Assembly (NCBI GenBank): GCA_964590435.1
Contig: CAZPWT010000005.1
Location: 67,470-131,469, forward strand
Reading direction: 5' to 3'
Length of the DNA: 64,000 bases
Source: an uncultured Planctomycetia bacterium
GTDB lineage: Bacteria > Planctomycetota > MHYJ01 > WSZJ01
Part shown: one piece after another, positions 15,994 to 37,627 of the stretch
Layout: each line of letters begins with the position of its first letter
Position numbering within the stretch: the stretch's first letter is position 1
Position numbers and translations under genes: made by a program
The notes under the pieces: model-generated
What the model was told of the DNA's origin: nothing
The model's database searches: none
What the model saw: the letters and a program-made list of their open reading frames with translations, nothing else

Positions 15994-16026
15994 AAGACGT
16001 CGAAGGTCGAAAGTTGAAGGTCGAAG
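15991..16026. repeat. GTCGAAGG-family repeat copy (tgaaagacgtcgaaggtcgaaagttgaaggtcgaag) just after the top6A stop
   Basis: Shares a >=20-nt identity (tgaaagacgtcgaaggtc) with the copy at 29954; the same GTCGAAGG units recur at 28664-28700. Confidence 0.7.
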
Positions 16027-24975: not shown

Positions 24976-25021
24976 CAAAAAGCGACGGCCTCCGGGGTCG
25001 ATCCCGGAGGCCGTTTTTTCC
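24976..25021. terminator. Bidirectional intrinsic terminator
   Basis: aaaaagcgacGGCCTCCGGGgtcgatCCCGGAGGCCgtttttt. Confidence 0.8.
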
Positions 25022-25031
25022 ATCGCCTGCC

Positions 25032-26189
25032 TTAGATCATCCGCGGCTTGCGCTCCGGCTTCTTCTCGCCGCCGCCCTCGCCGCGCGCCTTCTTCATCAT
25101 CGCCCTCAGCTCTTCCAGCTCCGCGCGCAGTTTCTCGGCCACTTCCTTGCGCCCGTTCTCCTTCGCCTGCCGGATCTGGTTCTCGACCTCGTCGATGCGG
25201 CGCTCGATCTTCGCCACCGCCTCCGCCCTCCGGCGCTCGACGTTCTCCTTTTCGCCGCCGGTCAGCTCGTGCATCAGCCCCTCAATCGCCTGCCGAAGTT
25301 CCCGGGCGCGCTCGCGCTCCCCGCCCGCCTCCGCCTTCTTGAGCTCCGCACGAAGCAGCTCGACTTTCTCCTTCATCGCCGCGCGCCGCTCGTCCTGGCC
25401 ACCGTCCTTGCCGGCCGGCGGACGATTGCCGCCGTCGCGGCCCTTCTCCATCTCCTGCATCGCGTTCTTCAGGCGCTGGAGGCCGTTGCGCAGCTCCTCG
25501 GCGCGCTTCTTGTCTCCCTTTTCCTCCGCATCGCGAAGGGCCCTGTGGAGTTCCTCGGCCTTGGCGCGGAGCTCGTCGGCGTGGCGCTGCATCTCGGCGC
25601 GATCCGGGCCCATCCCCGGGCCGGGCCCCTGCATGTCGTCGTGCCTACGAGGTTCGCCGCCAGGGCCCGGGCCGCCGGGCCGCGGGCCGCCGTCCTTGGC
25701 CTGCCGCTGCTTCTGCTCGAGGTGCTCCATCTGGAGGCGCACCGTCTCGAGCTCGAACTTCAGGTTCTGCATCTGGTGCTCGATCTCGCGCGCCTTCATG
25801 CGAAGCTGGAATTTCTGCTCTTCGATCTGCTCCGGCCCGCCGCCGGGCATTCCGCCCGGGCCACCCGGGCCGCCGGGACGAGGACCTCCGGGTCCCTGCG
25901 GGCCGCCCGGGCCCATGCCGGGGCCGCCGTCGCGCCCGGGACCGCCAGGGCCGCCCTCGCGCCCCGGGCCACCCGCCCTGGGGCCGCCGTCACGACCGTC
26001 CGGGCCCATCCCCGGACGCGGACCGCGGTCGCCGGGACGTCCGCCCTCCCGGTCCATCTCCCTCTCCATCTGCTCCATCCGCCCCCTCTGCTCATCCATG
26101 CCGGGGTCGCGCGGACGCGGTTCCTCCGCAGTCGCGGAGAACGGAAGAATCGAAGCGGTCGTCAGGATGACGGAGTGAATCCAGCGCAT
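25032..26189 (-). CDS. Secreted Gly/Pro-rich plus charged coiled-coil protein, last gene downstream of gspJ
   Basis: Signal peptide MRWIHSVILTTASILPFSATA; RPGGPGGPGG-type repeats; a long E/R/K-rich heptad region (ELRAKAEELHRALRDAEEKGDKKRAEELRNGL...). Confidence 0.6.
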   Translation of the reverse strand: MRWIHSVILTTASILPFSATAEEPRPRDPGMDEQRGRMEQMEREMDREGGRPGDRGPRPGMGPDGRDGGPRAGGPGREGGPGGPGRDGGPGMGPGGPQGPGGPRPGGPGGPGGMPGGGPEQIEEQKFQLRMKAREIEHQMQNLKFELETVRLQMEHLEQKQRQAKDGGPRPGGPGPGGEPRRHDDMQGPGPGMGPDRAEMQRHADELRAKAEELHRALRDAEEKGDKKRAEELRNGLQRLKNAMQEMEKGRDGGNRPPAGKDGGQDERRAAMKEKVELLRAELKKAEAGGERERARELRQAIEGLMHELTGGEKENVERRRAEAVAKIERRIDEVENQIRQAKENGRKEVAEKLRAELEELRAMMKKARGEGGGEKKPERKPRMI

Positions 26190-26278: not shown

Positions 26279-26968
26279 TCAATGGACGGGAGCCATCTCC
26301 ATCACGTACTTCTTCTCCGCCGCCTGCGCGTCCTTCTTCGCCAGCTCGGCGTCCGGGACCAGCACGAGCGTGATTCTCACGATCTGGGGAAGCGCCTTCT
26401 TCTGGGCGTCCTGGTCGCCCCAGGTCGCGAGCCAATCCTTGCCGTCCCAGTACTCCAGCTTCAGCGTCTTCACGCGCTTGTACATTTCCTGCAGCGTCCC
26501 GCCGGTCGCGGGCTTGTCGTCAACGTACGGGTCCTCGCGGCGCACGAGGATCTGCACCGAGGTGTCGTCGGGATTCGTCCGGAGGAAATACCCGACCTCG
26601 CAGAAGTCCGCGACGCGCTTCGTCGTCGGGTCCCACACGTCGCGCGACGAGATGAAATCGAGCGTGTCGGCATCGCCGGCGCCCTGCGAGTTGTCCTTTC
26701 CCGTGAAATACGCCGGGTTTTCCGGCGCAGGCTCCCCCTCCGCCGGCGGCGGCTGGTCGGGGACCGGCGGCACGAACGCGGCCGCAATGTCGTCCGACAT
26801 CAGCTTCAGGATCACCGGACCCGCTTCGTCGATCTCCGCCGTGCGCTCGAGCCGCGTGCGGGTCTGAAGCGTCGCGACGAGGACGCCGTAGATGATTCCG
26901 ATCATGATCGCGGTGATCGTGACGGTGAGGAGGACCTCCAGCAGCGTGAACCCGGCGGCGCGCTTCAT
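26279..26968 (-). CDS. gspJ: Type II secretion minor pseudopilin GspJ-like
   Basis: MKRAAGFTLLEVLLTVTITAIMIGIIYG prepilin N-terminus; ~229 aa; last in the G-H-I-J order. Confidence 0.7.
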   Translation of the reverse strand: MKRAAGFTLLEVLLTVTITAIMIGIIYGVLVATLQTRTRLERTAEIDEAGPVILKLMSDDIAAAFVPPVPDQPPPAEGEPAPENPAYFTGKDNSQGAGDADTLDFISSRDVWDPTTKRVADFCEVGYFLRTNPDDTSVQILVRREDPYVDDKPATGGTLQEMYKRVKTLKLEYWDGKDWLATWGDQDAQKKALPQIVRITLVLVPDAELAKKDAQAAEKKYVMEMAPVH

Positions 26969-27420
26969 CGCCCGCCTCCCCCGCCGCCGCCCTCGGGCGC
27001 CGCGTCGTCTTCCTTCAGGAGCCGGTACCACTGCGCCTGCGAGACGCGCTGCGTCCCGTCGGGGAGCTGCTGCGTCACCTTGACCGTGATCTTCCACATC
27101 TCGCGCGGATGGTCGTCGTCCACCTTCTCGATCGCGTCCATCGTGACCTTCTCGGTCAGCCGCTCCCATGAGGCGGTCGGCTCTTCCTCGAACGTCCCCG
27201 ACTCGGTCCCCTCCTTCACGTCGTCGATCTTCACCTCTTCGTAGTCGCCGACCTTCTGCTGCAGCAGCCCCCACGACGTCCGGAGCTGCTTCGCCTGCGT
27301 CACGTGCTCGATCGCGCGCGTCCGCATGTACAGCAGCGCGAAGACCGTCGTCGACACGATCGCCAGCGCGAGCATGACCTCGAGCAGGGTGAACCCGGCG
27401 TCGCGGCGGATGCGGATCAT
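26965..27420 (-). CDS. gspI: Type II secretion minor pseudopilin GspI-like
   Basis: MIRIRRDAGFTLLEVMLALAIVSTTVFAL; ~151 aa; ATGA overlap with gspJ. Confidence 0.7.
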   Translation of the reverse strand: MIRIRRDAGFTLLEVMLALAIVSTTVFALLYMRTRAIEHVTQAKQLRTSWGLLQQKVGDYEEVKIDDVKEGTESGTFEEEPTASWERLTEKVTMDAIEKVDDDHPREMWKITVKVTQQLPDGTQRVSQAQWYRLLKEDDAAPEGGGGGGGR

Positions 27421-28013
27421 TCGGCCGCCGCCTCGAGCGAGACCGGGTCGACGTGCCCTTCCTTCAGGTCCACGAACCCCGTCACCGGGCTCGCCACGAT
27501 CGTGAACTTCGAGTTGTCCTCCTCGCCCGTGATCCAGATCGTGTGGCTCCGGATCGAGCCGTACGGCGTGCACTCCACCGTCACCGGCATCACCTCCGCC
27601 GCCTGCTCCGCGCTCCACACGATCTTCTCGAACTTCACCCCGTCCGGGAGCTTCCGCTCCATCGTCCGCACCCACTTGTACTCCGCGTCCTTGAACGCGT
27701 TCTCCGCCGTGTCCGCAGGCTCTTCCTCGTCCCCCGACTGGTTCACCTTCTCCGGCGACAGGATCCAGTACGTCTTGTTCGGCACGTCGTACTGGATGTA
27801 GTGCGGCATGCCGGTGCTCATGGCGGAAGCGCGGGCCAGGCGCAGCTCGGAGGCGATTTCGCGCACGCAGGAGCGGACCCTGTAGCGCGGCAGGAGATTG
27901 TCGATGCGCCCCACAGTCACGAGCAGCAGGACGCCCATGATCACGAGCACGACCGACAGCTCGATCAGCGTGTACCCGCCCTGCCGGCCGGCGGAACGGC
28001 GGAATGCGCGCAT
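27417..28013 (-). CDS. gspH: Type II secretion minor pseudopilin GspH-like
   Basis: GGYTLIELSVVLVIMGVLLLVTVG prepilin N-terminus; 198 aa; ATGA overlap with gspI. Confidence 0.7.
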   Translation of the reverse strand: MRAFRRSAGRQGGYTLIELSVVLVIMGVLLLVTVGRIDNLLPRYRVRSCVREIASELRLARASAMSTGMPHYIQYDVPNKTYWILSPEKVNQSGDEEEPADTAENAFKDAEYKWVRTMERKLPDGVKFEKIVWSAEQAAEVMPVTVECTPYGSIRSHTIWITGEEDNSKFTIVASPVTGFVDLKEGHVDPVSLEAAAE

Positions 28014-28032: not shown

Positions 28033-28485
28033 CTACTTCTTCTGCTCGTCGTCCATCGTCCAGTAGCTCAGGTCGGCGTCGAACCCCTCGCCCCCCTGCT
28101 GGTTGTCCGCGCCGTACGCGATGATGTCGAACTCTTTGCCGTTGTCCGCGGGCTTCTTGAAGATGTAATCCGAACCCCACGGATCCTTCGGCACCTTCTC
28201 CAGGTACCCGCCCTCCGGCCAGTCCTTCGCGAACGACGGCCGGTTCACCAGGTCCTCCATCGCGTCCGGGTACCGGTTCTGCTCCATCTTGAACAGCTTC
28301 ACCTGGTCCGCGATGTGCTTGATGTCGCCCTTCGCCCGCGTCACCTTCGCCTTGTCGGCGCGCGACACCAGCACGGGCGTCACGGCGGCGGCCAGCACCC
28401 CGATGATCACCAGCACGATCATCAGTTCCATCAGCGTGAAGCCGCTGTTGGCGCGGCGGATATTGCGGCGGTCGCGGCGAAGCAT
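28033..28485 (-). CDS. gspG: Type II secretion major pseudopilin GspG
   Basis: NSGFTLMELMIVLVIIGVLAAAVTP; conserved DPWGSDY box; 150 aa; perfect RBS AGGAGG 6 nt upstream. Confidence 0.88.
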   Translation of the reverse strand: MLRRDRRNIRRANSGFTLMELMIVLVIIGVLAAAVTPVLVSRADKAKVTRAKGDIKHIADQVKLFKMEQNRYPDAMEDLVNRPSFAKDWPEGGYLEKVPKDPWGSDYIFKKPADNGKEFDIIAYGADNQQGGEGFDADLSYWTMDDEQKK

Positions 28486-28663
28486 GAATCCTCCTGGTTA
28501 CTGCGGTTGACCCGTCATTGTACGCCCGCTCCGTCCCGCGGGCCTCTGGAGATTCAACGAGCGGCGCGCGGGGACGTTGGGTGGGAAGCGGATTTTCCTG
28601 GAGGAACCGTTGGCGGGCGAAATGCGCGCACTCGGTCGAGAGCCCCTTCCAATCCCACTCAAC

Positions 28664-28700
28664 CTTCGACTTTCGACCTTCGACGCATTCTTCGACGCCT
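28664..28700. repeat. GTCGAAGG-family repeat copy between gspF and gspG
   Basis: ccttcgactttcgaccttcgacgcattcttcgacgcc: the reverse-complement form of the GTCGAAGG units, with a short internal inverted repeat (gtcgaagaatgcgtcgaag). Confidence 0.65.
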
Positions 28701-28703
28701 TCC

Positions 28704-29930
28704 CTACATGTTCGACAGATCCAGGATCGGCAGGAGCACCGCCATCACGATGAACCCGACCACGACCGCCATCACCACGATCATGATCGGCTCGATCAGG
28801 CTCGTGACCTTCTGCGTCGTCAGCTCCATCTCCTCGTCGTACGACTGCGACACCTTCCGAAGCATCTGCTCCAGCTGCCCCGATTCCTCGCCGATCGCGA
28901 CCATGTAGCAGACCGTCGGCGGGAAGAGCTTCGATTGCTTGAGCGGCGCGCTGATGTCCGAGCCTTCCATGACGCGGCCGCGGACCTTGGCGATGACCTC
29001 GGCCAGGACGACGTTGCCCATGATGCGCTCGGTGATGGAGAGCGCTTCCATGACGGGCAACCCGGATTCCAGCAGCGTGGCGAGAGTGGAGGCGAAGCGG
29101 GAGATGGCGGCCTTGCGGAAGAGTTCGCCGAGGGCGGGGACGCGGAGGATGAAGCCGTCCCAGGCGCGGCGGCCGTTGGTGGTGTTGGTGAAGAGCTTGA
29201 AGGCGATCCAGGCGGCGACGAGGCCGCCGAGGAGGAACGGCCAGTAGCCGCGGAGGATGTTGGTGATGGTGACGAGGATGACGGTGGGGAGGGGCATCGC
29301 GATCTTCTGCTTCTCGAGCACGTCGAGGATGCGGGGGACGACGACGCCGAGGAGGAAGGTGACGACGCCGACGCCGACGACGCACATGACGAGGGGGTAG
29401 GTGAGGGCGGCCATGACCTTGCCGGCGAGGCGGTTCTGCTGGTGCATGTAGTCGGCGAGGCGGGTGAGGATCTGGTCGAGGCTGCCGGAGGCTTCGCCGG
29501 AGCGGACCATGTTGACGTAGAGGTCGCCGAAGTAGGCGGGGTGGTTGGCGAGGGCGTCGGCGAAGGTGGAGCCCTGGCCGATGCGTTCGCGGACGTCGCG
29601 CATGACGGCGTTGATCTTCGCGTTGCCGGTCTGCTCGATGATGGCCTTCATGGCCTCGTTGAGCGGGGTGCCGGCCCCGAGGAGGGTGGCGAGCTGGCGC
29701 GTGACGAGGGCGATCTCGATGGGGCTCTTGCGCTGCGCGAACTTCGGCAGGAACGCCATCCGCTTCTTCTGGGCCTCGGCCTTGACGCCCTGGACGACGG
29801 CGTCGAGCTGCGTGACGTGGAGGTTCTGCATCCGCAGCTTCGAGCGGGCCTCGCGCGGGGAATCGGCATCGATGACGCCGATCGCGGCGTCGCCGGATTC
29901 CTTGATGGCTTTGTAGCTGAAGACGGGCAT
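28704..29930 (-). CDS. gspF: Type II secretion inner-membrane platform protein GspF
   Basis: 408 aa; duplicated GspF/PilC cytoplasmic domains (QLATLLGAGTPL ... TLATLLESGLPV) and three TM segments. Confidence 0.88.
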   Translation of the reverse strand: MPVFSYKAIKESGDAAIGVIDADSPREARSKLRMQNLHVTQLDAVVQGVKAEAQKKRMAFLPKFAQRKSPIEIALVTRQLATLLGAGTPLNEAMKAIIEQTGNAKINAVMRDVRERIGQGSTFADALANHPAYFGDLYVNMVRSGEASGSLDQILTRLADYMHQQNRLAGKVMAALTYPLVMCVVGVGVVTFLLGVVVPRILDVLEKQKIAMPLPTVILVTITNILRGYWPFLLGGLVAAWIAFKLFTNTTNGRRAWDGFILRVPALGELFRKAAISRFASTLATLLESGLPVMEALSITERIMGNVVLAEVIAKVRGRVMEGSDISAPLKQSKLFPPTVCYMVAIGEESGQLEQMLRKVSQSYDEEMELTTQKVTSLIEPIMIVVMAVVVGFIVMAVLLPILDLSNM

Positions 29931-29953: not shown

Positions 29954-30053
29954 TTGAAAGACGTCGAAGGTCTAAGGTCGAAGGTTAACCGCGTCCGAAC
30001 GGGAGCCGGCATTGCTCGGGCCGGCCTTCGACTTTCGACCTTCGACCTTCGAC
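29954..30053. repeat. GTCGAAGG-family inverted repeat between gspE and gspF
   Basis: tgaaagacgtcgaaggtctaaggtcgaagg ... ccttcgactttcgaccttcgaccttcgacg (30-nt arms, 40-nt spacer). Confidence 0.8.
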
Positions 30054-30057
30054 GCCG

Positions 30058-31764
30058 TCATACAACGTCCATCTGCGTCACCCGGATGACTTCCTCGATC
30101 GTCGTCCTTCCTTCCAGCACCTTCAGCGCCCCGTCCATCCGGAGCGTCCTCAGGCCCACCTTCACGGCGTCCTGCTTGATGAGCGTCGAGCTGACCTTCG
30201 AGACCACCTGGTCGCGGACGTGGTCGGTGATCGGCAGGATCTCGTAGATGCCGGTGCGGTCGTGATACCCCGTGCCGAGGCACCGGTCGCAGCCGCGGCC
30301 CTTCCAGAGCGTCATCTTCGGACAGCGCTCGGGGGAGAGGCCGATCGAGAAGAGGTCCTCGGGGGTCACGGGCTGCGGCTCCTTGCAGCCGGGGCAGATG
30401 AGGCGGACGAGGCGCTGGGCGATGACGCCGATCAGGGACGACGCGACGAGGTACGGCTCGACGCCGAGGTCGAGCAGTCGCGTGATGGCGCCGGCGGCGT
30501 CGTTCGTGTGGAGGGTGCTGAACACGAGGTGGCCCGTGAGCGACGACTGGATCGCGATGTCGGCGGTTTCGCCGTCGCGGATTTCGCCGACCATGATGAT
30601 GTTCGGGTCCTGGCGCACGATCGACCTCAGCCCCGTCGCGAACGTCAGCCCCTTCTTCGGCGAAACCTCGATCTGGCTGATCCCCTGGATGTGGTATTCG
30701 ACCGGGTCCTCGATCGTGATCACGTTTTTCGCGGTCGAATTGATCGTCTTCAGCGCCGAGTACAGCGTCGTGGACTTCCCCGACCCCGTCGGCCCCGTCA
30801 CGAGAAGGACCCCGTGCGAGCACTTCACCAGCTTGCTCATCGTCCCGTACTGCATCTCGTCGAGGCCCAGCTCGCGCAGGTCGAGCAGGCGGCCGCTCTT
30901 GTCGAGCAACCGCATGACGATGCGCTCGCCGTTCGACGTCGGCACGCTCGAGATACGCACGTCCACGTCGTTGTCGCCCACCTTGATCGTCGCGCGGCCG
31001 TCCTGCGGCAGCCGCCGCTCCGCGATGTCCATCTTCCCCATGATCTTGATGCGGCTGATGATCGCGTCCTGGATCTTCTTCGGCGGCGTCATCATGTCGT
31101 ACAGGATGCCGTCGATGCGGTACCGCACCTGCAGCTTCTCCTCGTACGGCTGGATGTGGATGTCGCTGGCGCGCATCTTCAGCGCCTGGAACATGATCAT
31201 GTTCACCAGCTTGATGATCGGCGCCTTGTTCGCCATGTCGAGGAGGTCGTGCCCCTCCTCGAGCTCGCGCGCCAGCCCGGCCATCTCGTCGTCCTCGAGG
31301 TCCTCCAGCATCTCGTCGACGACGTCCATCTTCTTCTGGTACGCCTTGTTGATCAGCGCCGTGATCTCGCTCTTCGGCGCCAGCACGATCGTCACCGTCT
31401 TCCCCACCATCAGCGCCAGCTCGTCGAGCGGGTGGAAGTCGAACGGGTTGCACGTCACCACGCGGATCGCCCCGTTCTCCTCGCCGATCCCCACCAGGTT
31501 GTGGCTCCGCGCGAACTGCACCGGCACCGCTTCCACGAACGCCGCCGGCACTTCCGCGTCCCCCAGCCGGTCCATCAGCGGCGCCGCAAGGGCCTTCGAG
31601 AACGCCTTCAGCATCTGCTTCTCGTTCAGGAACCCCCGGGTCAGCAGCACCCGGTCGATCGGTTCACGCGACTCCGTGGAAACGGCGAAGGCCTCGTCCA
31701 CCTTCGTGTCGGCGAGGCCGCCGTCCTCCACCAGCGCTTTGCGGAACCGCTCGAGCAGCAGCAT
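30058..31764 (-). CDS. gspE: Type II secretion ATPase GspE
   Basis: Walker A LLVTGPTGSGKSTTLYSAL; Asp/His boxes; tetracysteine CPGCK...CDRCLGTG zinc motif. Confidence 0.92.
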   Translation of the reverse strand: MLLLERFRKALVEDGGLADTKVDEAFAVSTESREPIDRVLLTRGFLNEKQMLKAFSKALAAPLMDRLGDAEVPAAFVEAVPVQFARSHNLVGIGEENGAIRVVTCNPFDFHPLDELALMVGKTVTIVLAPKSEITALINKAYQKKMDVVDEMLEDLEDDEMAGLARELEEGHDLLDMANKAPIIKLVNMIMFQALKMRASDIHIQPYEEKLQVRYRIDGILYDMMTPPKKIQDAIISRIKIMGKMDIAERRLPQDGRATIKVGDNDVDVRISSVPTSNGERIVMRLLDKSGRLLDLRELGLDEMQYGTMSKLVKCSHGVLLVTGPTGSGKSTTLYSALKTINSTAKNVITIEDPVEYHIQGISQIEVSPKKGLTFATGLRSIVRQDPNIIMVGEIRDGETADIAIQSSLTGHLVFSTLHTNDAAGAITRLLDLGVEPYLVASSLIGVIAQRLVRLICPGCKEPQPVTPEDLFSIGLSPERCPKMTLWKGRGCDRCLGTGYHDRTGIYEILPITDHVRDQVVSKVSSTLIKQDAVKVGLRTLRMDGALKVLEGRTTIEEVIRVTQMDVV

Positions 31765-33854
31765 TACTTCTTCTCCCCGCCGGAACCCTTCTTGAACGGG
31801 CTGTGGAACTCAAACAGGTCCGCCGAGTTCGGCTCGAACTGCCCCAGCATGTGCTTGCCGACCCACTTCTTCGACAGCCGGAAGATCGAGTTCTGCTTCG
31901 ACAGCGTCAGGCGCTTGAAGTCGGTGAAGTCGGGGTCGCTGAGGATGATCGGGGTGATGAAAAGGTACAGGGTGACCTTGGTGCCGTCGCGGACGGTGCG
32001 CTGGAAGAGCTGCCCGAGGAGGGGGATGTCCTCGAGGATCGGGATACCGGTGGTGGTCTCGCTGATCTGGTCGCTCACGAGGCCGCCGATGACGACGGTG
32101 TAGGTGTTGGGGAGCGTGACCTTGGTGATGACGGAGCGGTTCGTGATGGGTGGCGGCACCGTGGAATCCGCCGAGGGGCGGGCCTGGAACTGGGAGACCG
32201 TGAGATCGACCTCGAGCTGCAGGTAGTTGTCGGCAGAGATGTGCGGCGTGATCTTGAGCGTGATGCCCGCGGACGTCGTGCTGCCGCTTCCCGCGGTCAC
32301 GACGCCTGTCGTGGTCGTCGTGGTGACGGTGGTCACGACCTCGGTCAGCGTGAGGGTCGCGGCCTCGTTGTCGTTCGTGGTCACCTGCGGGAGGGAAAGG
32401 ACGTTGATCTTGCGCTTGGCGCTCATGGCGTGGAGCAGGACGGGGAGCTTCCCGGCCGCGCCACGGATGAGGCCCGTCGTGAGGCCCGGGAGGCCGTCGT
32501 TGGGGACCTTGATGTCCGGGATGCTGTCACCGTCGGTGTCGGTCAGGACGCCGAGGCCGAAGTTCGCGTTGGCGAAGCCGCGCGTCCGGCCGTCCGCCGG
32601 GTTGGCGGCCGCCGCCAGCTCGAACCCGAGGTCGAACTGGTCGTTGTCGTTGACCTCGAAGATCGCCGCCTCGATGACCACCTGCGGGCGGCGCTTGTCC
32701 AGCTCGGCGATGAAGACCTCCATCGCGTCCCAGACCTCGGGGGTGGCGACGACGAGAAGAGCGTTGTTCTGCAGGTCCGCCGTGATGGACACCTGGACCT
32801 GCTGGTTCGGCGGCGTCGCGGTCCCGACGGCGGCGTCCGCGCCCCGCGCCGGCTGGTTCGCCCCGCCGCGCGGCTGCGATGTGTTGCTCGTCCCGCCACC
32901 GAAGATCGACTGCAGGACCGTCGCCAGCGTTTCCGCCCTCGCATGCTTGAGCCGGTACACGTGCAGGTTCGTCGGCGAGCGCTCCGGCCGGATGTCGAGC
33001 TTCATGATCATGTCCTTGATCTGCACCATGCGGTCGGGCAGCGCCAGGACGATGAGCGAGTTCGTGCGGAAGTCCGACCCGATCGACACCTGCTCCTGCT
33101 GCGGCACCGGAACGCCGGGACGCGGCGGCTGGGCGCGCTGAAGCGTCTGGACGAGCTGGTTGAGCTTCGGCTCGAGCTCCGTGGCGCTCGCGAACCGCAG
33201 CGAGATCACCTCGAGCAGCACGTCCGGCTGCTTGCGGTCGATCATCGCGATGATCAACTGGATGCGCTTCACGTTGATCGCGTAGTCCGTGATGATGATG
33301 GCGTTGAGCGTTTCGCTGGCGAGGACGTTGCGCGGGTCGGACAGCAGGGCCTGCGCCGGGGCGAGGATGTCGCGCGCGCTGGCGTACTTGAGCGCGATCA
33401 CCGCCGTGACCATCTGGTCGCGCGACAGCAGCTTGTCGGCCGCCTCGCCGGGCACGAACGGCACGCCGTTCTTGGAGCTTTCCTCGCGCTTCACGATCGT
33501 GATGACCTCGATCGTCGGCTTGCCGCGCTCGATCTCGAGCTGCTTCGGCACGAGCGCGAGCTGCATGTTGGACAGGACCGACTCGAACAGCAGGAACACG
33601 CCGCTCTCCGGCACCTGCATCGCCCGCGACAGGTTCACCGGCGGCTTCGCCTTCAGCGCTTCCTTGTCGTAGATGAACGCCTTCCCGGTCAGGTTCGAGA
33701 CCATCACGATCAGGTTCTCGATCGTGACGCCGTTCCAGTCGACCTCGATCATCTGCTCGGGCTTCTCCGGCTCCTTCGGCGGCTCGGGGGCCTGCGCGGA
33801 AGCCACGTTCGCCAGCAAGCCGACCAGCGAGGCCACGGCCAGGTAACGCTTCAT
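31764..33854 (-). CDS. gspD: Type II secretion outer-membrane secretin GspD
   Basis: Signal peptide MKRYLAVASLVGLLANVASA; N0 domain (VDWNGVTIENLIVMVSNLTGKAFIYD...VNLSRAMQVPESGVFLLFESVLSNMQLALV); C-terminal secretin domain (VVIGGLVSDQISETTTGIPILEDIPLLGQLFQRT). TAATG overlap with gspE. Confidence 0.9.
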   Translation of the reverse strand: MKRYLAVASLVGLLANVASAQAPEPPKEPEKPEQMIEVDWNGVTIENLIVMVSNLTGKAFIYDKEALKAKPPVNLSRAMQVPESGVFLLFESVLSNMQLALVPKQLEIERGKPTIEVITIVKREESSKNGVPFVPGEAADKLLSRDQMVTAVIALKYASARDILAPAQALLSDPRNVLASETLNAIIITDYAINVKRIQLIIAMIDRKQPDVLLEVISLRFASATELEPKLNQLVQTLQRAQPPRPGVPVPQQEQVSIGSDFRTNSLIVLALPDRMVQIKDMIMKLDIRPERSPTNLHVYRLKHARAETLATVLQSIFGGGTSNTSQPRGGANQPARGADAAVGTATPPNQQVQVSITADLQNNALLVVATPEVWDAMEVFIAELDKRRPQVVIEAAIFEVNDNDQFDLGFELAAAANPADGRTRGFANANFGLGVLTDTDGDSIPDIKVPNDGLPGLTTGLIRGAAGKLPVLLHAMSAKRKINVLSLPQVTTNDNEAATLTLTEVVTTVTTTTTTGVVTAGSGSTTSAGITLKITPHISADNYLQLEVDLTVSQFQARPSADSTVPPPITNRSVITKVTLPNTYTVVIGGLVSDQISETTTGIPILEDIPLLGQLFQRTVRDGTKVTLYLFITPIILSDPDFTDFKRLTLSKQNSIFRLSKKWVGKHMLGQFEPNSADLFEFHSPFKKGSGGEKK

Positions 33855-34609
33855 TTGTTGGTCCCTTTGTCGATCTTGAACCGGAGGTTGAGGGGAAGGA
33901 CGAGCTCGCCGTTCTCGATCACCAGCTTCTGCCGCTGCAGCTCCGGCGCTTCCAGGACGCCGAAGTCCAGCACGCGCTTCTCACCGTTGCATTCGTACTC
34001 GAGGATCGGTTCGCCCTTGTCGGTGTAGCCGAGGAGGCGGATGCGGACTTCGGGAAGGGGGATGCGGGCGTCGAGGCCGGCGGCGGCGGGGGCCTCGGGG
34101 AGGCGCCACGGGGCGATGGTCGCGGTATCGACGGGGACCGGGGGGACGGGAAGGCCGCCCGAGGTCACGGAAGAGCGTTCTCCGGCGCGGACGGTCACGT
34201 TTCCCTGGCCGCCGGTGAGGAGGACCGTGCCCTCGACGACTTCGACCGAGAGCCGGCGGCCGCGCGACGGCAGGCGCGGCGCGGTCGACTCCTTGCGCGT
34301 GAACGGCACCAGCTTCCACGCGCCGTCCTTCGACGGCACCAGCGTGATCGACTGCGTCAGCTCGAGCGTCACGCCGAACGCGAGGAACACTTCCTCCGGC
34401 GTCCCGTTCTTCACGAACGTCAGCGTCTTCCCTTCCAGCATCGCCGGCGTGGACTCAAACTTCCGCCCCGTCGCCTGCTCCACGTCCTTCAGCGCTTCGG
34501 CCAGCGGCCGGTCGCGCCTGTCGACGCTGACCCGCCCGCCCGGCTCGCCGGCGACCATGATCCCGCCCGCGAGCGCCGCCGCCGCCACCAGTCGCAGCAT
34601 CGTTTTCAT
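33851..34609 (-). CDS. Secreted STN-like (secretin/TonB N-terminal) domain protein; possible GspC-analogue or FecR partner
   Basis: Start MKTMLRLVAAAALAGG at 34609 (ATGA overlap with the anti-sigma stop); LAEALKDVEQATGRKFESTPAMLEGKTLTF resembles an STN/N0 fold; ATGA overlap with the gspD start. Confidence 0.55.
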   Translation of the reverse strand: MKTMLRLVAAAALAGGIMVAGEPGGRVSVDRRDRPLAEALKDVEQATGRKFESTPAMLEGKTLTFVKNGTPEEVFLAFGVTLELTQSITLVPSKDGAWKLVPFTRKESTAPRLPSRGRRLSVEVVEGTVLLTGGQGNVTVRAGERSSVTSGGLPVPPVPVDTATIAPWRLPEAPAAAGLDARIPLPEVRIRLLGYTDKGEPILEYECNGEKRVLDFGVLEAPELQRQKLVIENGELVLPLNLRFKIDKGTNK

Positions 34610-35301
34610 CAGCGGTACTCCAGGTGGAATTTGGTCCCGATGACTTCGATCGACCCCTCGCGTTCCGCCGACTCGAACCGCAGCCGGCCCTTGTCGCGCG
34701 GCGTCACCTCGGCCCAGAGCTCGCCGTACACCAGCATCACGCTCGGCGCCGCCAGGTCCGACCGGTTGATCATGATCTGCGACCCGTCCGCCAGCACGAT
34801 CAGGTCCCGCGCCCCGGACCGGAACCACACGCGCCCGCCGTTCGTCAGCACGCGGTCCCCCATCCGGATCGTCGTCCCCGTCGCCAGCGGCTCCCAGGTG
34901 GAACCGTCGGCCTTCATGAGAAGCGCCTCTCCGCGGACGTCCTCGGCCTTGAGCTCGTACGCCGGCGCGGCGCGGCCGATGCGGCCGGTCGCGACGCCCC
35001 ACGTCCCGAAGACCAGGAACAGCACGGCGGCGGCGAGCCCGAAGCGGAACCCGGAGTGGCCGCGCGGCTTGACGGCGCGCGATTCGTCGCCGGACGCCGC
35101 GGCCATCGCCGCCACGACGCGCGTCCGCCGCGTCGCGCTCGGCTCCGCCGCCACGGGCAGCTTCTCCGCGATGCGCAGCGTCCTCTCGAGATGCGCCCGC
35201 TCCGCGCGGCACCCCTCGCAGCCCTTCAAATGCTCCACCAGCGCGTCCCGTTCGGCGCCTTCAAGGTCGCCGAGGACCATCGCCGGCAGCAGCTTTTTCA
35301 T
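34609..35301 (-). CDS. Anti-sigma factor: N-terminal zinc-finger anti-sigma domain, TM helix, periplasmic FecR-like domain
   Basis: MKKLLPAMVLGDLEGAERDALVEHLKGCEGCRAERAHL (HxxxCxxC zf-HC2 type); TM FGLAAAVLFLVFGTWGV; C-terminal GDRVLTNGGRVWFRSGARDLIVLADGSQIMINRSDL (FecR-like). Confidence 0.75.
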   Translation of the reverse strand: MKKLLPAMVLGDLEGAERDALVEHLKGCEGCRAERAHLERTLRIAEKLPVAAEPSATRRTRVVAAMAAASGDESRAVKPRGHSGFRFGLAAAVLFLVFGTWGVATGRIGRAAPAYELKAEDVRGEALLMKADGSTWEPLATGTTIRMGDRVLTNGGRVWFRSGARDLIVLADGSQIMINRSDLAAPSVMLVYGELWAEVTPRDKGRLRFESAEREGSIEVIGTKFHLEYR

Positions 35302-35312
35302 CTCTACGCAGC

Positions 35313-35915
35313 TCACAGCGCCGCCTCCGCTTCTCCGCCCTGCCCGGCACGGACCAGTTCGCCCAGCGCCTGCATCGCCTCGTGCACCCGGAATTTCGCC
35401 GTCCCGACCGGGCAGTCCGTGATTTCCGCGATCTCCTTGTAGGACAGGCTGTGGTAGACGCGGAGGATCAGGGCTTCCTTCTTCACGGGCGGCAGTTGCG
35501 ACACGCATTCCCGCACCCGCAGCTCTTCCTCCGTCAGCTCGGCGCGGTCCTCGGGGGCCAGCCCGCCGTCGCGCAGCACGTCCTGCAGGTACAGCACCTT
35601 CCCGCCTTCCTCGCCCACGGGCGAGTCCATCGACGTCATCCGGACCTTCTTCACGCGCTTGATGTGGTCGAGGCACAGGTTGCGCGCGATCGTGTACAGC
35701 CACGTCGAGAACGCCCCCTCCGGCCGGTACGTCCTCAGGTTCTTCAGCACCCGCAGGAATGTCTCCTGGAACAGATCCTCCGCCAGCGCCCGGTCGTCAA
35801 CGTACCGCACGATGAACTGGATCAGCGGCCGTTCGAAGCGCTCCACCAGCTCGCGGAACGCGGCGTTGTCACCGCGCTCGCAGCGCTTGAGGAGGTCGCG
35901 TTCTTCCGGGCTCAT
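35313..35915 (-). CDS. ECF-subfamily sigma-70 factor
   Basis: Region 2 DLFQETFLRVLKNLRTY / STWLYTIARNLCLD; region 4 SYKEIAEITDCPVGTAKFRVHEA; 200 aa. Confidence 0.88.
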   Translation of the reverse strand: MSPEERDLLKRCERGDNAAFRELVERFERPLIQFIVRYVDDRALAEDLFQETFLRVLKNLRTYRPEGAFSTWLYTIARNLCLDHIKRVKKVRMTSMDSPVGEEGGKVLYLQDVLRDGGLAPEDRAELTEEELRVRECVSQLPPVKKEALILRVYHSLSYKEIAEITDCPVGTAKFRVHEAMQALGELVRAGQGGEAEAAL

Positions 35916-35989
35916 CGGGGGGCTCCGCTGGGGACCGAGGTTTAACGAGCGGGACTGGAAGGAGTTGGGGAATTCGGCGAAACGGGAGC

Positions 35990-36651
35990 CTATCGCGCGC
36001 AGCGGGGATACGGGCTGGAAAAGGGGGGAAGCGCCGCATGCGCGTCCCGAGCGGGATCGGGCGTGGCCACGGGGTGGTCCTCCACCTGCAGGAGTTCGAC
36101 GAGCGCCCGCCGCACCGCGTGCGCCTGCGACTCGGGGCCTGCGACCACCATGAAGGGAAGATCGAGGCGGGACCAGTCGTTCGCAGTGTCCTCAAGGAGG
36201 AACGGGGTGGAACCCTTGCTGGCCTCGGGCCGTCGGACCAATCGGGTAAGTGTCACAGAGGGCGCTGCGGGCCTGCGAATGAAAACCTGCGCGCAGGCAA
36301 GCTCATTGAATGCCAGGACCGATTCCAGCAGTGTATAGACCCCGGATGAGGGCACGTTCACGACGCGGGAGAAATTCACAGGAGGTTTTTGCTCGACTTG
36401 CCGTCGGTCGTACACGAGGACCCGGCCCGTATGAAGGGCCACTCCGTTCACAACTTCGGTCAGTCCGTGCCCGTTCCAATCGATGCGTACCAGGTCGCCT
36501 TCAACCGGTCTAGCCAGCCAATCGGGCACGGCCGGCGACTCGGAAGGCGGCGGGACAGCCGGTTCCGGGCGGCTGACGCAACCGGAACCGAAGCTCAAAA
36601 CCACAGCGAGGAACATCGCCGTCCGGGTCCAGCATGATGCGAGGATCGTCA
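35990..36651 (-). CDS. Lipoprotein carrying a secretin-N0-like domain paralogous to the GspD N-terminus
   Basis: Lipobox MTILASCWTRTAMFLAVVLSFGSGC. The segment LVRIDWNGHGLTEVVNGVALHTGRVLVYDRRQVEQKPPVNFSRVVNVPSSGVYTLLESVLAFNELA aligns by eye at ~50 % identity with GspD MIEVDWNGVTIENLIVMVSNLTGKAFIYDKEALKAKPPVNLSRAMQVPESGVFLLFESVLSNMQLA. Confidence 0.6.
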
Positions 36652-36778
36652 TGCCCTTCCAACGACGCAGCCCGATTTCGGTTGAGAGGCGCCCCTGCAG
36701 AAACACAAAAGGCGCCGCAGGCCGTTGCCCGCAGCGCCTTTCCACCGTTTCCACAATCCACGAACCACGAACCACCAA

Positions 36779-37627
36779 CTACTTCTTCGGCGGCTCCTCC
36801 GCCTTCTTCGGCTCCTCGACCTTCACGCCGAAGAACTTCAGCTTCCCGCGCGCCGTCTTCGCTTCTTCCGAGTCCGGCCAGCGATCGTTCACTTTCTTCC
36901 ACAGCTCGATCGCTTCCTTGCGCTGGTTCTTCTTGGAAAGGTCCGCGGCCTGGGCCATCAGGTCCTTGCGCTCCTTCTCTTCGGCGGCGATCCGCACCTT
37001 CTCGACTGCTTCCTGCGCCTTCACCGCGTCTTCTTTCGCCTTGGCGAGCCCCTCTTCCAGTTTCTTCTGCGCCTCGTCGTACGCCGCCTTGAAGTCGGCG
37101 TTCCCCTCGAGCTGCTTGTACCAGTCGTCCGCGGCCTTGCGCTCGGGGCGGCCTTCGAACCAGTGGCGCAGGTAAACCATCTTGGAAACGGCCGTCTTGA
37201 AGTCCCCGGCCTGCGCCGCGACGGCCATGCCGTTGTGGAGGCCGTAGCAGACTTCCTCGGCGAAAGCGTCGTCATGCGGCTTGCCCTTGCACTCGACCAG
37301 CTTGTTCCCCATCGGGTCCACCAGCATGAGGCGGGGGAAGCTGTCGACGCCGTACTGTTTCGCCGCGGCGGAACCTTCTTTCTCGGCGTTGAGGTGAACG
37401 CACACGAACGCCTTCAGGAACTCCTGGACCTCGGTGCGCGGATACGTATCCGTATCCATCTTCTTGCAGTACTTTCACCAGTCCGTGTAGAAGTCGAGAT
37501 ACATCAGTTTGCCTTCAAGTCCGGCCTTGACCTTCGCCTCCTCGAACGACTTCTCCCAGGCGACGCCGCCGGCGTGGGCGCTGGTGGCGGCAAGAAGGGC
37601 AAAGACGGCTGACGCCAATCGTTTCAT
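36779..37627 (-). CDS. Secreted thioredoxin-fold (DsbD-gamma/TlpA-like) protein with an in-frame TGA replacing the first Cys of CxxC; candidate selenoprotein (UxxC)
   Basis: Read across the TGA at 37475-37477, the frame gives MKRLASAVFALLAATSAHAGG...KLMYLDFYTDW-U-KYCKKMDTDTYPRTEVQEFLKAFVCVHLNAEKEG...YGVDSFPRLMLVDPMGNK. This is the DLYADWCVACK.../...LLGLPT... thioredoxin pattern. The ORF track split it into 36779..37459 plus a cryptic upstream part. Confidence 0.65.
37438..37459 (-). other. Stem-loop 17 nt downstream of the in-frame UGA; candidate bacterial SECIS element
   Basis: mRNA ...UGA AAG UAC UGC AAG AAG AU-GGAUACG-GAUA-CGUAUCC-G: a 7-8 bp stem with a 4-nt loop. The spacing is compatible with bacterial SECIS positioning. 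Confidence 0.4.

What the first reader, a model, noticed from the sequence alone, without database searches (positions are those of the whole stretch)
33851..35915. ECF sigma / FecR-like anti-sigma / STN-domain protein translationally coupled to the head of the T2SS operon (gspD-E)
On the minus strand the order is ECF sigma (35915-35313), then a 12-nt gap, then an anti-sigma with zf-HC2, a TM helix and a periplasmic FecR-like domain (35301-34609). Next comes a secreted STN-like protein (34609-33851, ATGA overlap), then the gspD secretin (ATGA overlap), then gspE (TAATG overlap).

This is the FecI/FecR/FecA cell-surface-signalling architecture. Here, though, the TonB-dependent transducer is replaced by a free STN/N0 protein and a T2SS secretin, whose N0 domain is itself STN-like. 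It suggests secretion (or secretin assembly stress) is wired directly to an ECF sigma circuit. It could even be auto-regulation of the whole T2SS operon by an envelope signal sensed through N0-FecR contacts.
Basis: partly seen in the sequence, partly recalled or inferred. Interest (0 to 1): 0.62.

Follow-up and report, generated by a model that had tools for sequence, protein, structure and literature searches.

The report
Sigma switch built into secretion operon
A Planctomycetota type II secretion gene cluster starts with its own ECF sigma factor and a membrane anti-sigma factor split into two genes. The second half carries a copy of the secretin's N0 docking domain, and sigma-type promoters sit in front of the sigma gene and the pseudopilin genes, so the machine probably controls its own transcription.

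Summary

- **What X is.** X is not a free stand-in for a TonB-dependent transducer. It is the detached periplasmic C-terminal half of the anti-sigma factor. In more distant relatives the two genes are one 467-497 aa protein, also sitting between the sigma gene and gspD.
- **X's domain.** X carries a secretin-type N0/STN domain. Pfam misses it on X itself, but the fold, a Pfam hit in a fused homolog and a family profile all support it.
- **Where the split falls.** The split comes 7 residues after a GT that aligns with GT181-182 of E. coli FecR, the motif at which FoxR cleaves itself.
- **A missed gene.** A lipoprotein ("Y") just upstream of sigma has an N0 domain 39% identical to GspD's.
- **Promoters.** A CAAC-N16-CGTT motif is conserved upstream of sigma in every family locus examined, and upstream of gspG in the five distinct loci that reach it. 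A weaker copy precedes Y.
- **Family membership.** The sigma is not FecI-type.

The closest known system is P. aeruginosa PUMA3 (VreA-VreI-VreR next to the Hxc T2SS). I rate this a new variant of a known kind.

The parts
36707..36742 (-). Intrinsic-terminator-like hairpin (16-pair stem plus T run) that ends the upstream thioredoxin-like gene and marks the 5' boundary of the block
36658..36686 (-). P_Y: weaker ECF-type promoter candidate, CTCAAC-N16-CGTTGGA, upstream of Y
   Evidence: The motif sits at the orthologous place in L003, L005 and L007. Its PWM score of 15.2 bits is within the shuffle range (max 16.2), so the support comes from position and conservation only.
35990..36616 (-). Y: lipoprotein-like protein (FGSGC lipobox) with a stand-alone secretin-type N0 domain. 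208 aa from ATG 36616; an alternative start at 36652 gives 220 aa.
   Evidence: In the 220-aa numbering, residues 54-152 are 39% identical to GspD residues 35-134, E=5e-22. Orthologs lie upstream of sigma in L003, L005 and L007, and two of them give weak Pfam PF21305 hits. The 208-aa form is on record. GC3 is 0.73, lower than the neighbouring genes.
35941..35969 (-). P_sigma: ECF-type promoter candidate, CCCAAC-N16-CGTTAAA; -35 CCAAC and -10 TCGTTAAACC are conserved while the spacer varies
   Evidence: Present upstream of the sigma gene in all family loci, including AT-rich L011. It is the only CCAAC-N15-17-TCGTTA match in the window, against 0.03 expected. PWM built from other loci scores it 26.5 bits, against a shuffle maximum of 16.2.
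35313..35915 (-). ECF sigma factor (200 aa), not FecI-type
   Evidence: Pfam r2 and r4_2. NCBIfam best hits are generic ECF, SigY, SigW and RpoE models. 24% identical to E. coli FecI. 43-94% identical to the sigmas of all other family loci.
34609..35316 (-). Anti-sigma factor, N-terminal part (235 aa from GTG 35316): ZAS anti-sigma domain, one TM helix and a periplasmic FecR-like beta domain that ends 7 residues after a GT motif
   Evidence: zf-HC2 E=1.5e-7; FecR 21.1 bits, below cut-off. NCBIfam anti-sigma E=1.6e-13. C3/H29/C33/C36 and TM 92-110. BLAST to E. coli FecR gives E=5e-5, with GT aligned on FecR GT181-182.
33851..34609 (-). X (252 aa): the detached periplasmic C-terminal part of the anti-sigma. 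It has its own signal-peptide-like N-terminus, an N0/STN domain (about residues 27-102), a FecR-tail-like beta segment (about 110-170) and a C-terminal beta domain.
   Evidence: AF2 pLDDT is 75-92 for residues 27-102, and Foldseek top hits are all STN/N0 domains. Collinear with the C-terminal half of fused 467-497 aa zf-HC2 proteins. Family profile against PDB: XcpQ N0 E=1.7e-8. Residues 110-170 match the tail of PF04773 domains.
31764..33854 (-). GspD secretin (696 aa), ATGA-coupled to X
   Evidence: Pfam Secretin, Secretin_N x3, and a weak N0 hit; junction
30058..31764 (-). GspE ATPase (568 aa), TAATG-coupled to gspD
   Evidence: T2SSE E=2e-136 and MshEN; junction
29964..30052 (.). Inverted arrays of the GGTCGAA/TCGAAGG heptamer, forming a long hairpin in the gspE-gspF spacer
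28704..29930 (-). GspF (408 aa)
   Evidence: T2SSF E=1.1e-67
28553..28581 (-). P_gspG: ECF-type promoter candidate, CCCAAC-N16-CGTTGAA, about 70 nt upstream of gspG
   Evidence: Conserved at the same place in L001, L003, L005 and L014. It is the best PWM hit in the whole window, 27.2 bits.
28033..28485 (-). GspG major pseudopilin (150 aa)
   Evidence: T2SSG E=2e-29 and N_methyl
26279..28013 (-). Minor pseudopilins: H-like 27417-28013, I-like 26965-27420, GspJ 26279-26968
   Evidence: N_methyl and T2SSJ hits; coordinates
25032..26189 (-). Last gene of the block: 385-aa secreted Gly/Pro-rich coiled-coil protein of unknown role, with positional counterparts in relatives
24984..25015 (.). Bidirectional terminator-like hairpin that closes the block

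Best explanation
The block from about 36690 to 24985 is a self-contained type II secretion cluster with its own ECF sigma / anti-sigma switch.

**Components**
- The sigma belongs to a distinct, non-FecI subgroup.
- The anti-sigma is FecR-like in its periplasmic part and ZAS-type in its cytoplasmic part.
- In this Planctomycetota clade the anti-sigma is split into two translationally coupled genes:
  - a membrane-anchored N-part (anti-sigma domain, TM helix, first beta domain);
  - a separately exported C-part, X (secretin-type N0/STN domain plus further beta domains).
- The split lies next to the residue homologous to the GT self-cleavage site of FecR/FoxR-type anti-sigmas. The gene fission therefore produces genetically the two-piece sensor that those proteins produce by autoproteolysis.

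**Proposed working (inferred)**
1. At rest the N-part holds sigma at the membrane. X docks on the N-part's periplasmic domain and shields it.
2. X's N0 domain contacts another N0 domain by strand pairing. The partner is that of the GspD secretin and/or of the N0-only lipoprotein Y.
3. A change in the state of the secretin or the machine releases X. This exposes the N-part to regulated proteolysis.
4. Free sigma then transcribes from CAAC-N16-CGTT promoters:
   - its own operon (sigma, anti-sigma, X, gspD, gspE and probably gspF);
   - the gspG-J pseudopilin operon;
   - probably Y.

**Shown here:** the parts, their homologies, the split, the synteny and the conserved promoter motifs.

**Inferred:** promoter use by this sigma, the N0-N0 contacts, the proteolytic release and the nature of the signal.
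For: **Conserved module**
- Sigma, anti-sigma, X and gspDEFG.. are in the same order in window, L007, L003, L005, L001 and L014. The split form X-gspD is seen in L021.
- Fused forms sit as sigma - anti-sigma/X - gspD in L011, L012, L013 and L023.
- In L022 the secretin follows two genes later.
- Genes upstream of the block differ between loci.
- None of 80 loci with other ECF sigmas has an X-family or secretin hit.
- The family's sigmas are 43-94% identical to each other, against 24-26% to other ECFs.

**X is half of an anti-sigma**
- A profile search found proteins of 467-497 aa with an N-terminal zf-HC2 and an X-like C-terminal half. One has a Pfam GspD N0 hit above the curated cut-off.
- They align collinearly with anti-sigma plus X. 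X's signal peptide appears as an insertion at the junction.
- The AF2 model of fused P0022 (pLDDT 84) best matches BDI_1681 putative anti-sigma, the PupR CCSSD and secretin N0 domains.

**N0 domain**
- Foldseek hits for X are PupB, FpvA, FecA signalling domains and XcpQ/GspD N0.
- The family profile against PDB sequences gives XcpQ N0 at E=1.7e-8.
- An X-family HMM also hits cognate GspD proteins.

**Split position**
- The anti-sigma's GT aligns on FecR GT181-182.
- FoxR self-cleaves at its GT site, and both pieces are needed for signalling. FoxR's STN subdomain binds the transducer's STN domain (PMC11637429).

**Promoters**
- The motif is conserved upstream of sigma in all loci, whose GC content ranges from 34% to 70%. 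It is also conserved upstream of gspG and of extra gspG paralogs.
- A PWM built without the window ranks P_gspG and P_sigma first and second in 128 kb, more than 10 bits above shuffles.
- No sigma-70-type promoter was found in the intergenic spacers, and terminators bracket the block.

**Precedent**
- VreI up-regulates the adjacent Hxc T2SS genes (PMC2729926).
Against: - No experiment exists. All organisms are uncultured MAGs or metagenome contigs.
- Promoter use by this sigma rests on motif conservation. Part of the PWM score reflects orthology with close relatives, and P_Y alone is within the shuffle range.
- X shows no pairwise sequence similarity to the window's own GspD or to Y. The N0-N0 contact is therefore an analogy to STN-STN pairing, not a result.
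- The fused relatives lack the GT motif, so self-cleavage is not a family trait. The coincidence of the split with the FecR GT position may only reflect a domain boundary.
- In L016 the sigma/anti-sigma/X triad is followed by gcpE, with no secretin in the 2.8 kb available.
- AF2 confidence for X beyond residue 105 is low when X is modelled alone.
- Inter-domain packing in the fused model could not be inspected (pTM 0.55).
Confidence: 0.68

Rival explanations
1. One reading: X is an autonomous secreted STN protein that takes the place of the TonB-dependent transducer in a FecI/FecR/FecA-type circuit, acting as a partner of the anti-sigma rather than as part of it.
For: X is a separate ORF with its own signal-peptide-like N-terminus, and this is conserved in the clade. 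It has an STN/N0 fold. After the fission it is physically a separate periplasmic protein and could have gained partner-like behaviour.
Against: X is collinear and homologous with the C-terminal half of single-chain anti-sigma factors, so it descends from the sensor, not from a transducer. FecR/PupR/FoxR-type anti-sigmas have their own STN subdomain (fold match). The sigma and the anti-sigma domain are not of the FecI/FecR type. The N0-only lipoprotein Y is a better candidate for a barrel-less receptor.
Confidence: 0.12
2. The anti-sigma and X are primarily structural T2SS parts. They would be a GspC-like inner-membrane-to-secretin connector in a cluster that lacks gspC/L/M, and sigma binding would be a secondary coupling or a vestige.
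For: - The pair occupies the position usually held by gspC, immediately upstream of and translationally coupled to gspD.
- The topology (short cytoplasmic part, one TM, periplasmic beta domain) resembles GspC.
- No GspC, L, M or K family was detected in the block (and precomputed Pfam).
- N0 domains are the known docking sites for GspC HR domains (PDB 3oss appears among the N0 matches).
Against: - No match to the GspC HR or PDZ domains in Pfam, in the Foldseek hit lists or in the PDB sequence searches.
- The cytoplasmic part is a complete ZAS anti-sigma domain with all four ligands, always paired with a co-evolving sigma and sigma-type promoters.
- In L016 and L022 the triad is separated from the secretin.
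- The two roles are not mutually exclusive.
Confidence: 0.12
3. An ordinary envelope-stress ECF pair happens to share an operon with the T2SS. It senses a general signal unrelated to the secretin and does not specifically control secretion genes.
For: ECF pairs are very common and usually autoregulated. The signal is unknown. L016 shows the triad without an adjacent secretin.
Against: The same motif precedes gspG in the five distinct loci that reach it, and also extra gspG paralogs. The association with gspD holds in 12 of 13 distinct loci across 34-70% GC, and is absent from 80 control ECF loci. The sensor carries a secretin-type N0 domain.
Confidence: 0.08

Closest known systems
PUMA3 cell-surface signalling system of Pseudomonas aeruginosa (VreA-VreI-VreR) with the adjacent Hxc type II secretion system (PMC2729926)
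   Same: - The gene order matches: a barrel-less STN-only receptor-like protein, then an ECF sigma, then a membrane anti-sigma, then a T2SS cluster immediately downstream.
- In PUMA3 the sigma up-regulates those T2SS genes.
- Here the order is Y (N0-only lipoprotein), sigma, anti-sigma plus X, then gspD-J, with sigma-type promoters in front of sigma and gspG.
   Different: - The sigma is not of the FecI/CSS clade.
- The anti-sigma domain is ZAS, not FecR_N.
- The anti-sigma is split into two genes.
- Its STN-like domain is of the secretin N0 subtype.
- The sigma and anti-sigma are translationally coupled to gspD inside the T2SS operon rather than in a neighbouring unit.
- Y is a lipoprotein whose N0 domain is a paralog of the cognate secretin's, whereas VreA has a TolA/TonB-like C-terminal domain.
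- Homology of Y to VreA was not tested.
- The resemblance is probably convergent.
FecI/FecR/FecA, FoxI/FoxR/FoxA and PupI/PupR/PupB cell-surface signalling
   Same: - A single-pass anti-sigma whose periplasmic part is a beta-solenoid-like FecR domain plus an STN-like subdomain (fold match to BDI_1681 and the PupR CCSSD; BLAST to E. coli FecR E=5e-5).
- A two-piece sensor: FoxR self-cleaves at GT and needs both pieces, and STN-STN pairing carries the signal (PMC11637429).
   Different: - There is no TonB-dependent transducer.
- Neither the sigma nor the anti-sigma domain is of the Fec type.
- The N0 domain is internal, followed by two more beta domains, rather than C-terminal.
- The two pieces come from separate genes instead of from autoproteolysis.
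- The output is a secretion machine, not an uptake system.
ZAS (zinc-binding) anti-sigma factors such as RsrA, ChrR and RslA
   Same: The H-x3-C-x2-C motif plus an upstream Cys at the canonical spacing (C3, H29, C33, C36), and Pfam zf-HC2.
   Different: It is membrane-anchored with a large FecR-like/N0 periplasmic sensor. There is no evidence for redox sensing.
ECF sigmas dedicated to a secretion machine, e.g. the HrpL-type group ECF32 with T3SS genes (PMC7826278)
   Same: An ECF sigma whose conserved neighbourhood and likely regulon is one secretion apparatus.
   Different: ECF32 has no co-encoded membrane anti-sigma that senses through a secretin-like domain. The machine and the phylum also differ.
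GspC-GspD N0 docking in classical T2SS (PDB 3oss)
   Same: A bitopic inner-membrane protein encoded just upstream of gspD, in a system where N0 is the docking surface.
   Different: No HR or PDZ domain was detected. The protein carries an anti-sigma domain and an N0 domain of its own.

Membership tests
FecI/FecR/FecA-type cell-surface signalling | Sigma of the FecI-like ECF clade | tested here: not met
   NCBIfam best hits are PRK12513, SigY, SigW and RpoE-type models, with no FecI model among the top 25. 24% identity to E. coli FecI at E=3e-7, the generic ECF level.
FecI/FecR/FecA-type cell-surface signalling | Anti-sigma with a FecR_N (DUF4880, PF16220) cytoplasmic domain | tested here: not met
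   The window protein has zf-HC2 instead. E. coli FecR gives PF16220 in the same scan type.
FecI/FecR/FecA-type cell-surface signalling | Periplasmic FecR domain (PF04773) | tested here: inconclusive
   21.1 bits against a 24-bit cut-off, covering profile positions 10-81 of 97. BLAST to E. coli FecR residues 62-184 gives E=5e-5. Anti-sigmas of L016 and L022 carry precomputed PF04773 hits. The fused homolog's fold matches BDI_1681 and the PupR CCSSD.
FecI/FecR/FecA-type cell-surface signalling | STN-like subdomain at the C-terminus of the anti-sigma (FecR_C, PF16344) | tested here: not met
   An STN/N0 fold is present. However, it matches PF21305 (GspD N0) rather than PF16344. It is internal in the fused proteins and sits on a separate polypeptide here.
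FecI/FecR/FecA-type cell-surface signalling | Cognate TonB-dependent transducer with an N-terminal signalling domain | tested here: not met
   No such gene is in the block. The neighbours are GspD and the N0-only lipoprotein Y.
PUMA3-like (VreAIR plus T2SS) systems | Barrel-less STN-only receptor-like protein encoded upstream of sigma | tested here: met
   Y residues 54-152 (220-aa numbering) are 39% identical to GspD N0, E=5e-22. The protein is too short for a barrel domain (208-220 aa), and orthologs are conserved upstream of sigma in 4 loci. This is met by architecture only. Homology to VreA and VreA's TolA-like C-terminal domain were not tested.
PUMA3-like (VreAIR plus T2SS) systems | T2SS cluster directly downstream and under the sigma's control | tested here: inconclusive
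   Adjacency is met. Control is predicted from conserved CAAC-N16-CGTT motifs upstream of sigma and gspG. There are no expression data.
ZAS anti-sigma factors | H-x3-C-x2-C with an upstream Cys/His ligand about 26 residues before the His, within a class I anti-sigma domain | tested here: met
   C3, H29, C33, C36 with the GTG start. PF13490 E=1.5e-7. NCBIfam anti-sigma NF052375 E=1.6e-13, below its cut-off. Zinc binding is not testable here.
Type II secretion system | Secretin GspD, ATPase GspE, platform GspF, major pseudopilin GspG and minor pseudopilins | tested here: met
   Pfam Secretin/Secretin_N, T2SSE, T2SSF, T2SSG, N_methyl and T2SSJ.
Type II secretion system | Assembly-platform proteins GspC, GspL and GspM | tested here: not met
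   No such family appears in any gene of the block, here or in relatives. The rest of the genome was not searched.
GspC (considered for anti-sigma/X) | HR domain plus a PDZ or coiled-coil domain | tested here: not met
   No Pfam hit. No GspC chain appears among the Foldseek matches or the PDB sequence matches.

The most novel reading that the evidence does not exclude
The T2SS secretin's own N0 ring, and/or its free paralog Y, serves as the signalling domain for an ECF anti-sigma factor. This would be a 'secretin-dependent transducer'. The state of the secretion channel (assembly, mislocalisation or substrate load) would be read directly through N0-N0 contacts with X and converted into transcription of the machine's own genes. 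A gene fission would stand in for the FecR-type self-cleavage step. That would make it cell-surface signalling without any TonB-dependent receptor, evolved independently of the Fec/PUMA3 lineage.
Probability: 0.3. Interest if true: 0.75.

Novelty: new variant of a known kind. Interest (0 to 1): 0.58.

Why it matters
- **T2SS regulation.** How T2SS expression is tied to the state of the machine is poorly understood, and regulators are usually remote and global. Here a small family of uncultured Planctomycetota and relatives carries a dedicated sigma switch inside the operon.
- **A concrete hypothesis.** The sensor carries the same domain that secretins use for docking. That gives a testable idea for feedback from a secretin to transcription.
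- **A natural split sensor.** The split anti-sigma is a genetic counterpart of the self-cleaved two-piece FecR/FoxR sensors. It could help show why two pieces are needed.
- **A candidate synthetic-biology part.** The sigma/promoter pair (CAAC-N16-CGTT) looks compact, with a matching anti-sigma. Whether it is orthogonal to other ECF systems is untested.
- **Annotation.** X-family proteins, now 'hypothetical', can be labelled as the periplasmic half of an anti-sigma factor. Y can be labelled as a free N0-domain lipoprotein.

Tried and rejected
- **Pfam and NCBIfam on X and on Y:** no hits. The STN call could not be settled that way.
- **Pairwise BLAST of X against the window's GspD and Y:** nothing significant.
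- **Close-homolog profile of X (A1) against PDB sequences:** nothing. Only the wider family profile A3 found secretin N0.
- **The search for homologous proteins with fused P0022:** returned only itself and P0026, a wasted search.
- **Sigma-based metagenome scan:** I used these as a negative control.
- **Supplementary tables of the ECF re-classification paper:** not held, so the sigma could not be assigned to a numbered ECF group.
- **Literature searches:** no paper in the held library links Planctomycetes or anti-sigma factors with N0 domains to T2SS, apart from PUMA3.
- **Frameshift or pseudogene origin of the anti-sigma/X split:** rejected. Both ORFs are intact, and the split is conserved from 98% down to 25-33% identity.
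- **Chance adjacency:** rejected on synteny.

Full report
**1. What is in the sequence**

The window is high-GC DNA, about 61-73% by 2-kb windows. Its closest relatives are Planctomycetota/Planctomycetia MAGs. On the minus strand the genes run in this order:

| Gene | Coordinates | Evidence |
|---|---|---|
| ECF sigma | 35313-35915 | Sigma70_r2 E=4.7e-21, r4_2 E=1.9e-15 |
| Anti-sigma | 34609-35316 | zf-HC2 E=1.5e-7; FecR 21.1 bits, below the 24-bit cut-off |
| X (252 aa) | 33851-34609 | No Pfam or NCBIfam hit |
| GspD | 31764-33854 | |
| GspE | 30058-31764 | |
| GspF | 28704-29930 | |
| GspG | 28033-28485 | |
| Three minor pseudopilins | 26279-28013 | |
| Unknown secreted coiled-coil protein | 25032-26189 | |

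- Third-position GC is 0.87-0.96 for all of these genes.
- Terminator-like hairpins at 36742-36707 and 24984-25015 bracket the block. No sigma-70-type promoter was found in its spacers.

- The anti-sigma most likely starts at GTG 35316, overlapping the sigma stop (GTGA). Only that start keeps Cys3, which completes the zinc-ligand set C3/H29/C33/C36. It is also the start called in the orthologs.
- The anti-sigma/X junction is TGATG, not ATGA.
- The ATGA (X/gspD) and TAATG (gspD/gspE) overlaps are as stated.

**2. Conservation**

X has only about ten close homologs, all from Planctomycetota MAGs or metagenomes.
- In every contig long enough to show it, the order sigma, anti-sigma, X, gspD-E-F-G-H-I-J is kept. 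This holds down to 46% identity (L001) and in a remote member (L014, X profile E=1.4e-32). Genes upstream of the block differ between loci.
- A further split member has gspD directly after X (L021).

**3. What X is**

An exhaustive profile search with the X alignment found 57 proteins.
- Six are 467-497 aa long. They have an N-terminal zf-HC2 anti-sigma domain and an X-like C-terminal half. One scores above the curated cut-off for Pfam PF21305, the GspD N0 domain.
- Aligned with the window's anti-sigma plus X, they are collinear from end to end. The split falls after '...IEVIGTKFHLEYR', and X's signal-peptide-like N-terminus is an insertion at that point.
- These single-chain forms also sit between an orthologous sigma and gspD (L011, L012, L013, L023).
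- X is therefore the detached periplasmic half of the anti-sigma factor, not a separate transducer-like protein.

*Fold evidence*
- The AF2 model of X is confident only for residues 27-102. There it has a beta-alpha-beta-alpha-beta-beta fold. Its best PDB matches are all STN/N0 domains: PupB, FpvA and FecA signalling domains, and XcpQ/GspD N0.
- A fused homolog modelled with the wider alignment reaches pLDDT 84. It shows four N-terminal helices, a TM helix, a beta domain, an N0 domain and two further beta domains.
- Its best matches are the FecR-like putative anti-sigma BDI_1681 (E=8e-5), the PupR cell-surface-signalling domain (E=9e-4) and secretin N0 domains at 22-26% identity.

*Sequence evidence*
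- The family profile matches XcpQ N0 at E=1.7e-8.
- An X-family HMM picks up cognate GspD proteins.
- The STN/N0 assignment therefore passes a profile test, although X alone does not.

*FecR-tail segment*
- Residues 110-170 of X match the last strands of PF04773 domains, and the linker that follows them, in genuine FecR-like proteins.

**4. Position of the split**

- The anti-sigma's periplasmic domain aligns with E. coli FecR residues 62-184 (E=5e-5). Its GT falls exactly on FecR GT181-182.
- FoxR-type anti-sigmas cleave themselves at this GT into N and C pieces that are both required. The C piece's STN subdomain binds the transducer's STN domain (PMC11637429).
- Here the gene ends 7 residues after that GT. 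The clade makes by gene fission a two-piece sensor much like the one those proteins make by autoproteolysis.
- The fused relatives lack GT, so this parallel may reflect a shared domain boundary rather than shared chemistry.

**5.

Directly upstream of sigma lies Y (35990-36616, or from 36652).
- It is lipoprotein-like (FGSGC). In the 220-aa numbering, residues 54-152 are 39% identical to GspD's N0 region, E=5e-22.
- Orthologs sit in the same place in L003, L005 and L007 but not in L001.
- Its GC3 of 0.73 is lower than that of its neighbours.
- Y is a barrel-less, N0-only protein. It is the better candidate for the 'free STN protein' role.

**6. Promoters**

| Site | Coordinates | Conservation |
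|---|---|---|
| Upstream of sigma | 35969-35941 | All family loci examined, including an AT-rich one (34% GC). The -35 and -10 blocks are fixed and the spacers vary |
| Upstream of gspG | 28581-28553 | Also in L001, L003, L005 and L014 |
| Upstream of extra gspG paralogs | L003, L005 | |
| Upstream of Y (weaker form) | 36686-36658 | Four loci |

- The motif is CAAC-N16-CGTT, with AAAC or TAAC in some loci.
- A weight matrix built only from other loci ranks P_gspG (27.2 bits) and P_sigma (26.5 bits) first and second in both strands of the 64-kb window. The maximum in shuffles is 16.2 bits.
- P_Y scores 15.2 bits and is supported by position only.
- This is the classic ECF promoter architecture. 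Use by this sigma is inferred.

**7. Specificity**

- The sigmas of all family loci are 43-94% identical to the window's. They are 24-26% identical to a neighbouring unrelated ECF and to FecI.
- None of 80 metagenomic loci with other ECF sigmas (42% identity or less) contains an X-family or secretin hit.
- Among 13 distinct family loci, gspD follows directly in 11 and two genes later in one (L022). It is not seen in the 2.8 kb available in one (L016).

**8. Mechanism proposed**

*Shown:* the parts, the homologies, the split, the synteny and the motifs.

*Inferred:*
1. The ZAS domain of the N-part sequesters sigma at the membrane.
2. X binds the N-part's periplasmic beta domain and shields it.
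3. X's N0 domain pairs with the N0 of GspD and/or Y.
4. A change in the secretin or the machine releases X. Regulated proteolysis then frees sigma.
5. Sigma transcribes its own operon (through gspE and probably gspF), gspG-J and probably Y.

Sigma and anti-sigma are translationally coupled, so the default state should be off, with positive feedback on induction.

My estimates:

| Claim | Probability |
|---|---|
| Dedicated module for the T2SS | about 0.95 |
| Sigma drives the T2SS genes from these motifs | about 0.75 |
| Sensing through N0 contacts with GspD or Y | about 0.3-0.35 |

**9. Comparison with known systems**

- The closest known system is PUMA3 of P. aeruginosa. There, vreA (STN-only, no barrel), vreI (ECF sigma) and vreR (anti-sigma) are followed by the Hxc T2SS genes, which VreI up-regulates (PMC2729926). 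The gene order and the logic are the same.
- The window system differs in the sigma clade, the ZAS anti-sigma domain, the secretin-type N0 domain, the split and the physical integration into the T2SS operon. It probably arose independently.
- It is not a member of the FecIRA family. The tests for sigma type, anti-sigma domain type, C-terminal FecR_C and a TonB-dependent transducer all fail. The periplasmic fold is FecR-like all the same.
- I found no description of this family in the held literature. The ECF classification paper mentions no T2SS-linked group in its main text.

**10. Verdict**

- This is a new variant of a known kind: cell-surface-signalling-like ECF control of a secretion system.
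- It has three new features. The anti-sigma carries a secretin N0 domain, a gene fission mimics FecR self-cleavage, and a free N0 lipoprotein paralog of the secretin sits upstream.
- Interest is moderate to high for specialists in ECF signalling and T2SS. It is limited by the absence of any cultured carrier.

Noticed in passing
window 16000-16025 (+), 28665-28683 (-), 29964-29982 (+) and 30027-30052 (-): Short arrays of a heptamer repeat (GGTCGAA/TCGAAGG) occur in three intergenic spots, with 9 matches against 0.55 expected. In the gspE-gspF spacer two arrays face each other and can form a long hairpin. A third array lies in the gspF-gspG spacer, upstream of P_gspG. This may be a REP-like element or an attenuator.
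   Followed up: partly
window 25032-26189 (-): The last gene of the block encodes a 385-aa protein with a signal peptide, a Gly/Pro-rich region and a long charged coiled coil. It has no Pfam hit. Positional counterparts of 367-388 aa exist in L001, L003 and L005. It could be a substrate, or a substitute for the missing GspK/L/M.
   Followed up: partly
L003 16240-16722 and L005 16159-16638: Relatives carry an extra gspG paralog between gspF and gspG, with its own CAAC-N16-CGTT motif (L003 16185, L005 16103). The window lacks this paralog.
   Followed up: partly
L016 387-4039 and L022 6362-12290: In a more distant subclade the sigma/anti-sigma/X triad is followed by gcpE (ispG). In L022 a GspD secretin follows two genes later. 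In L016 none is seen before the contig turns to a DNA ligase gene.
   Followed up: partly
window 35990-36652 (-): Y has a markedly lower third-position GC (0.73) than all neighbouring genes (0.87-0.96). It is absent from the 46%-identity relative L001, which suggests a younger duplication of the secretin N0 region.
   Followed up: partly
window 36779-37459 (-) and 37686-38423 (-): Upstream neighbours are a weakly thioredoxin-like 226-aa protein and a DUF817 membrane protein. The first, or a counterpart of the same size, appears in L007, L003 and L005, though in L005 not next to the block. It is not part of the sigma-T2SS unit, because a terminator lies between them.
   Followed up: no
window 31214-31241 (-): The only sigma-70-like promoter match in the 13-kb block lies inside gspE. 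It is probably chance (1 found, 0.5 expected).
   Followed up: no
L012 5251-5814 (-) and 130-981 (+): A locus with a fused anti-sigma also carries a second, divergently transcribed ECF sigma (26% identical to the window's). It also has a separate FecR-domain protein next to a CHASE2 guanylate cyclase.
   Followed up: no
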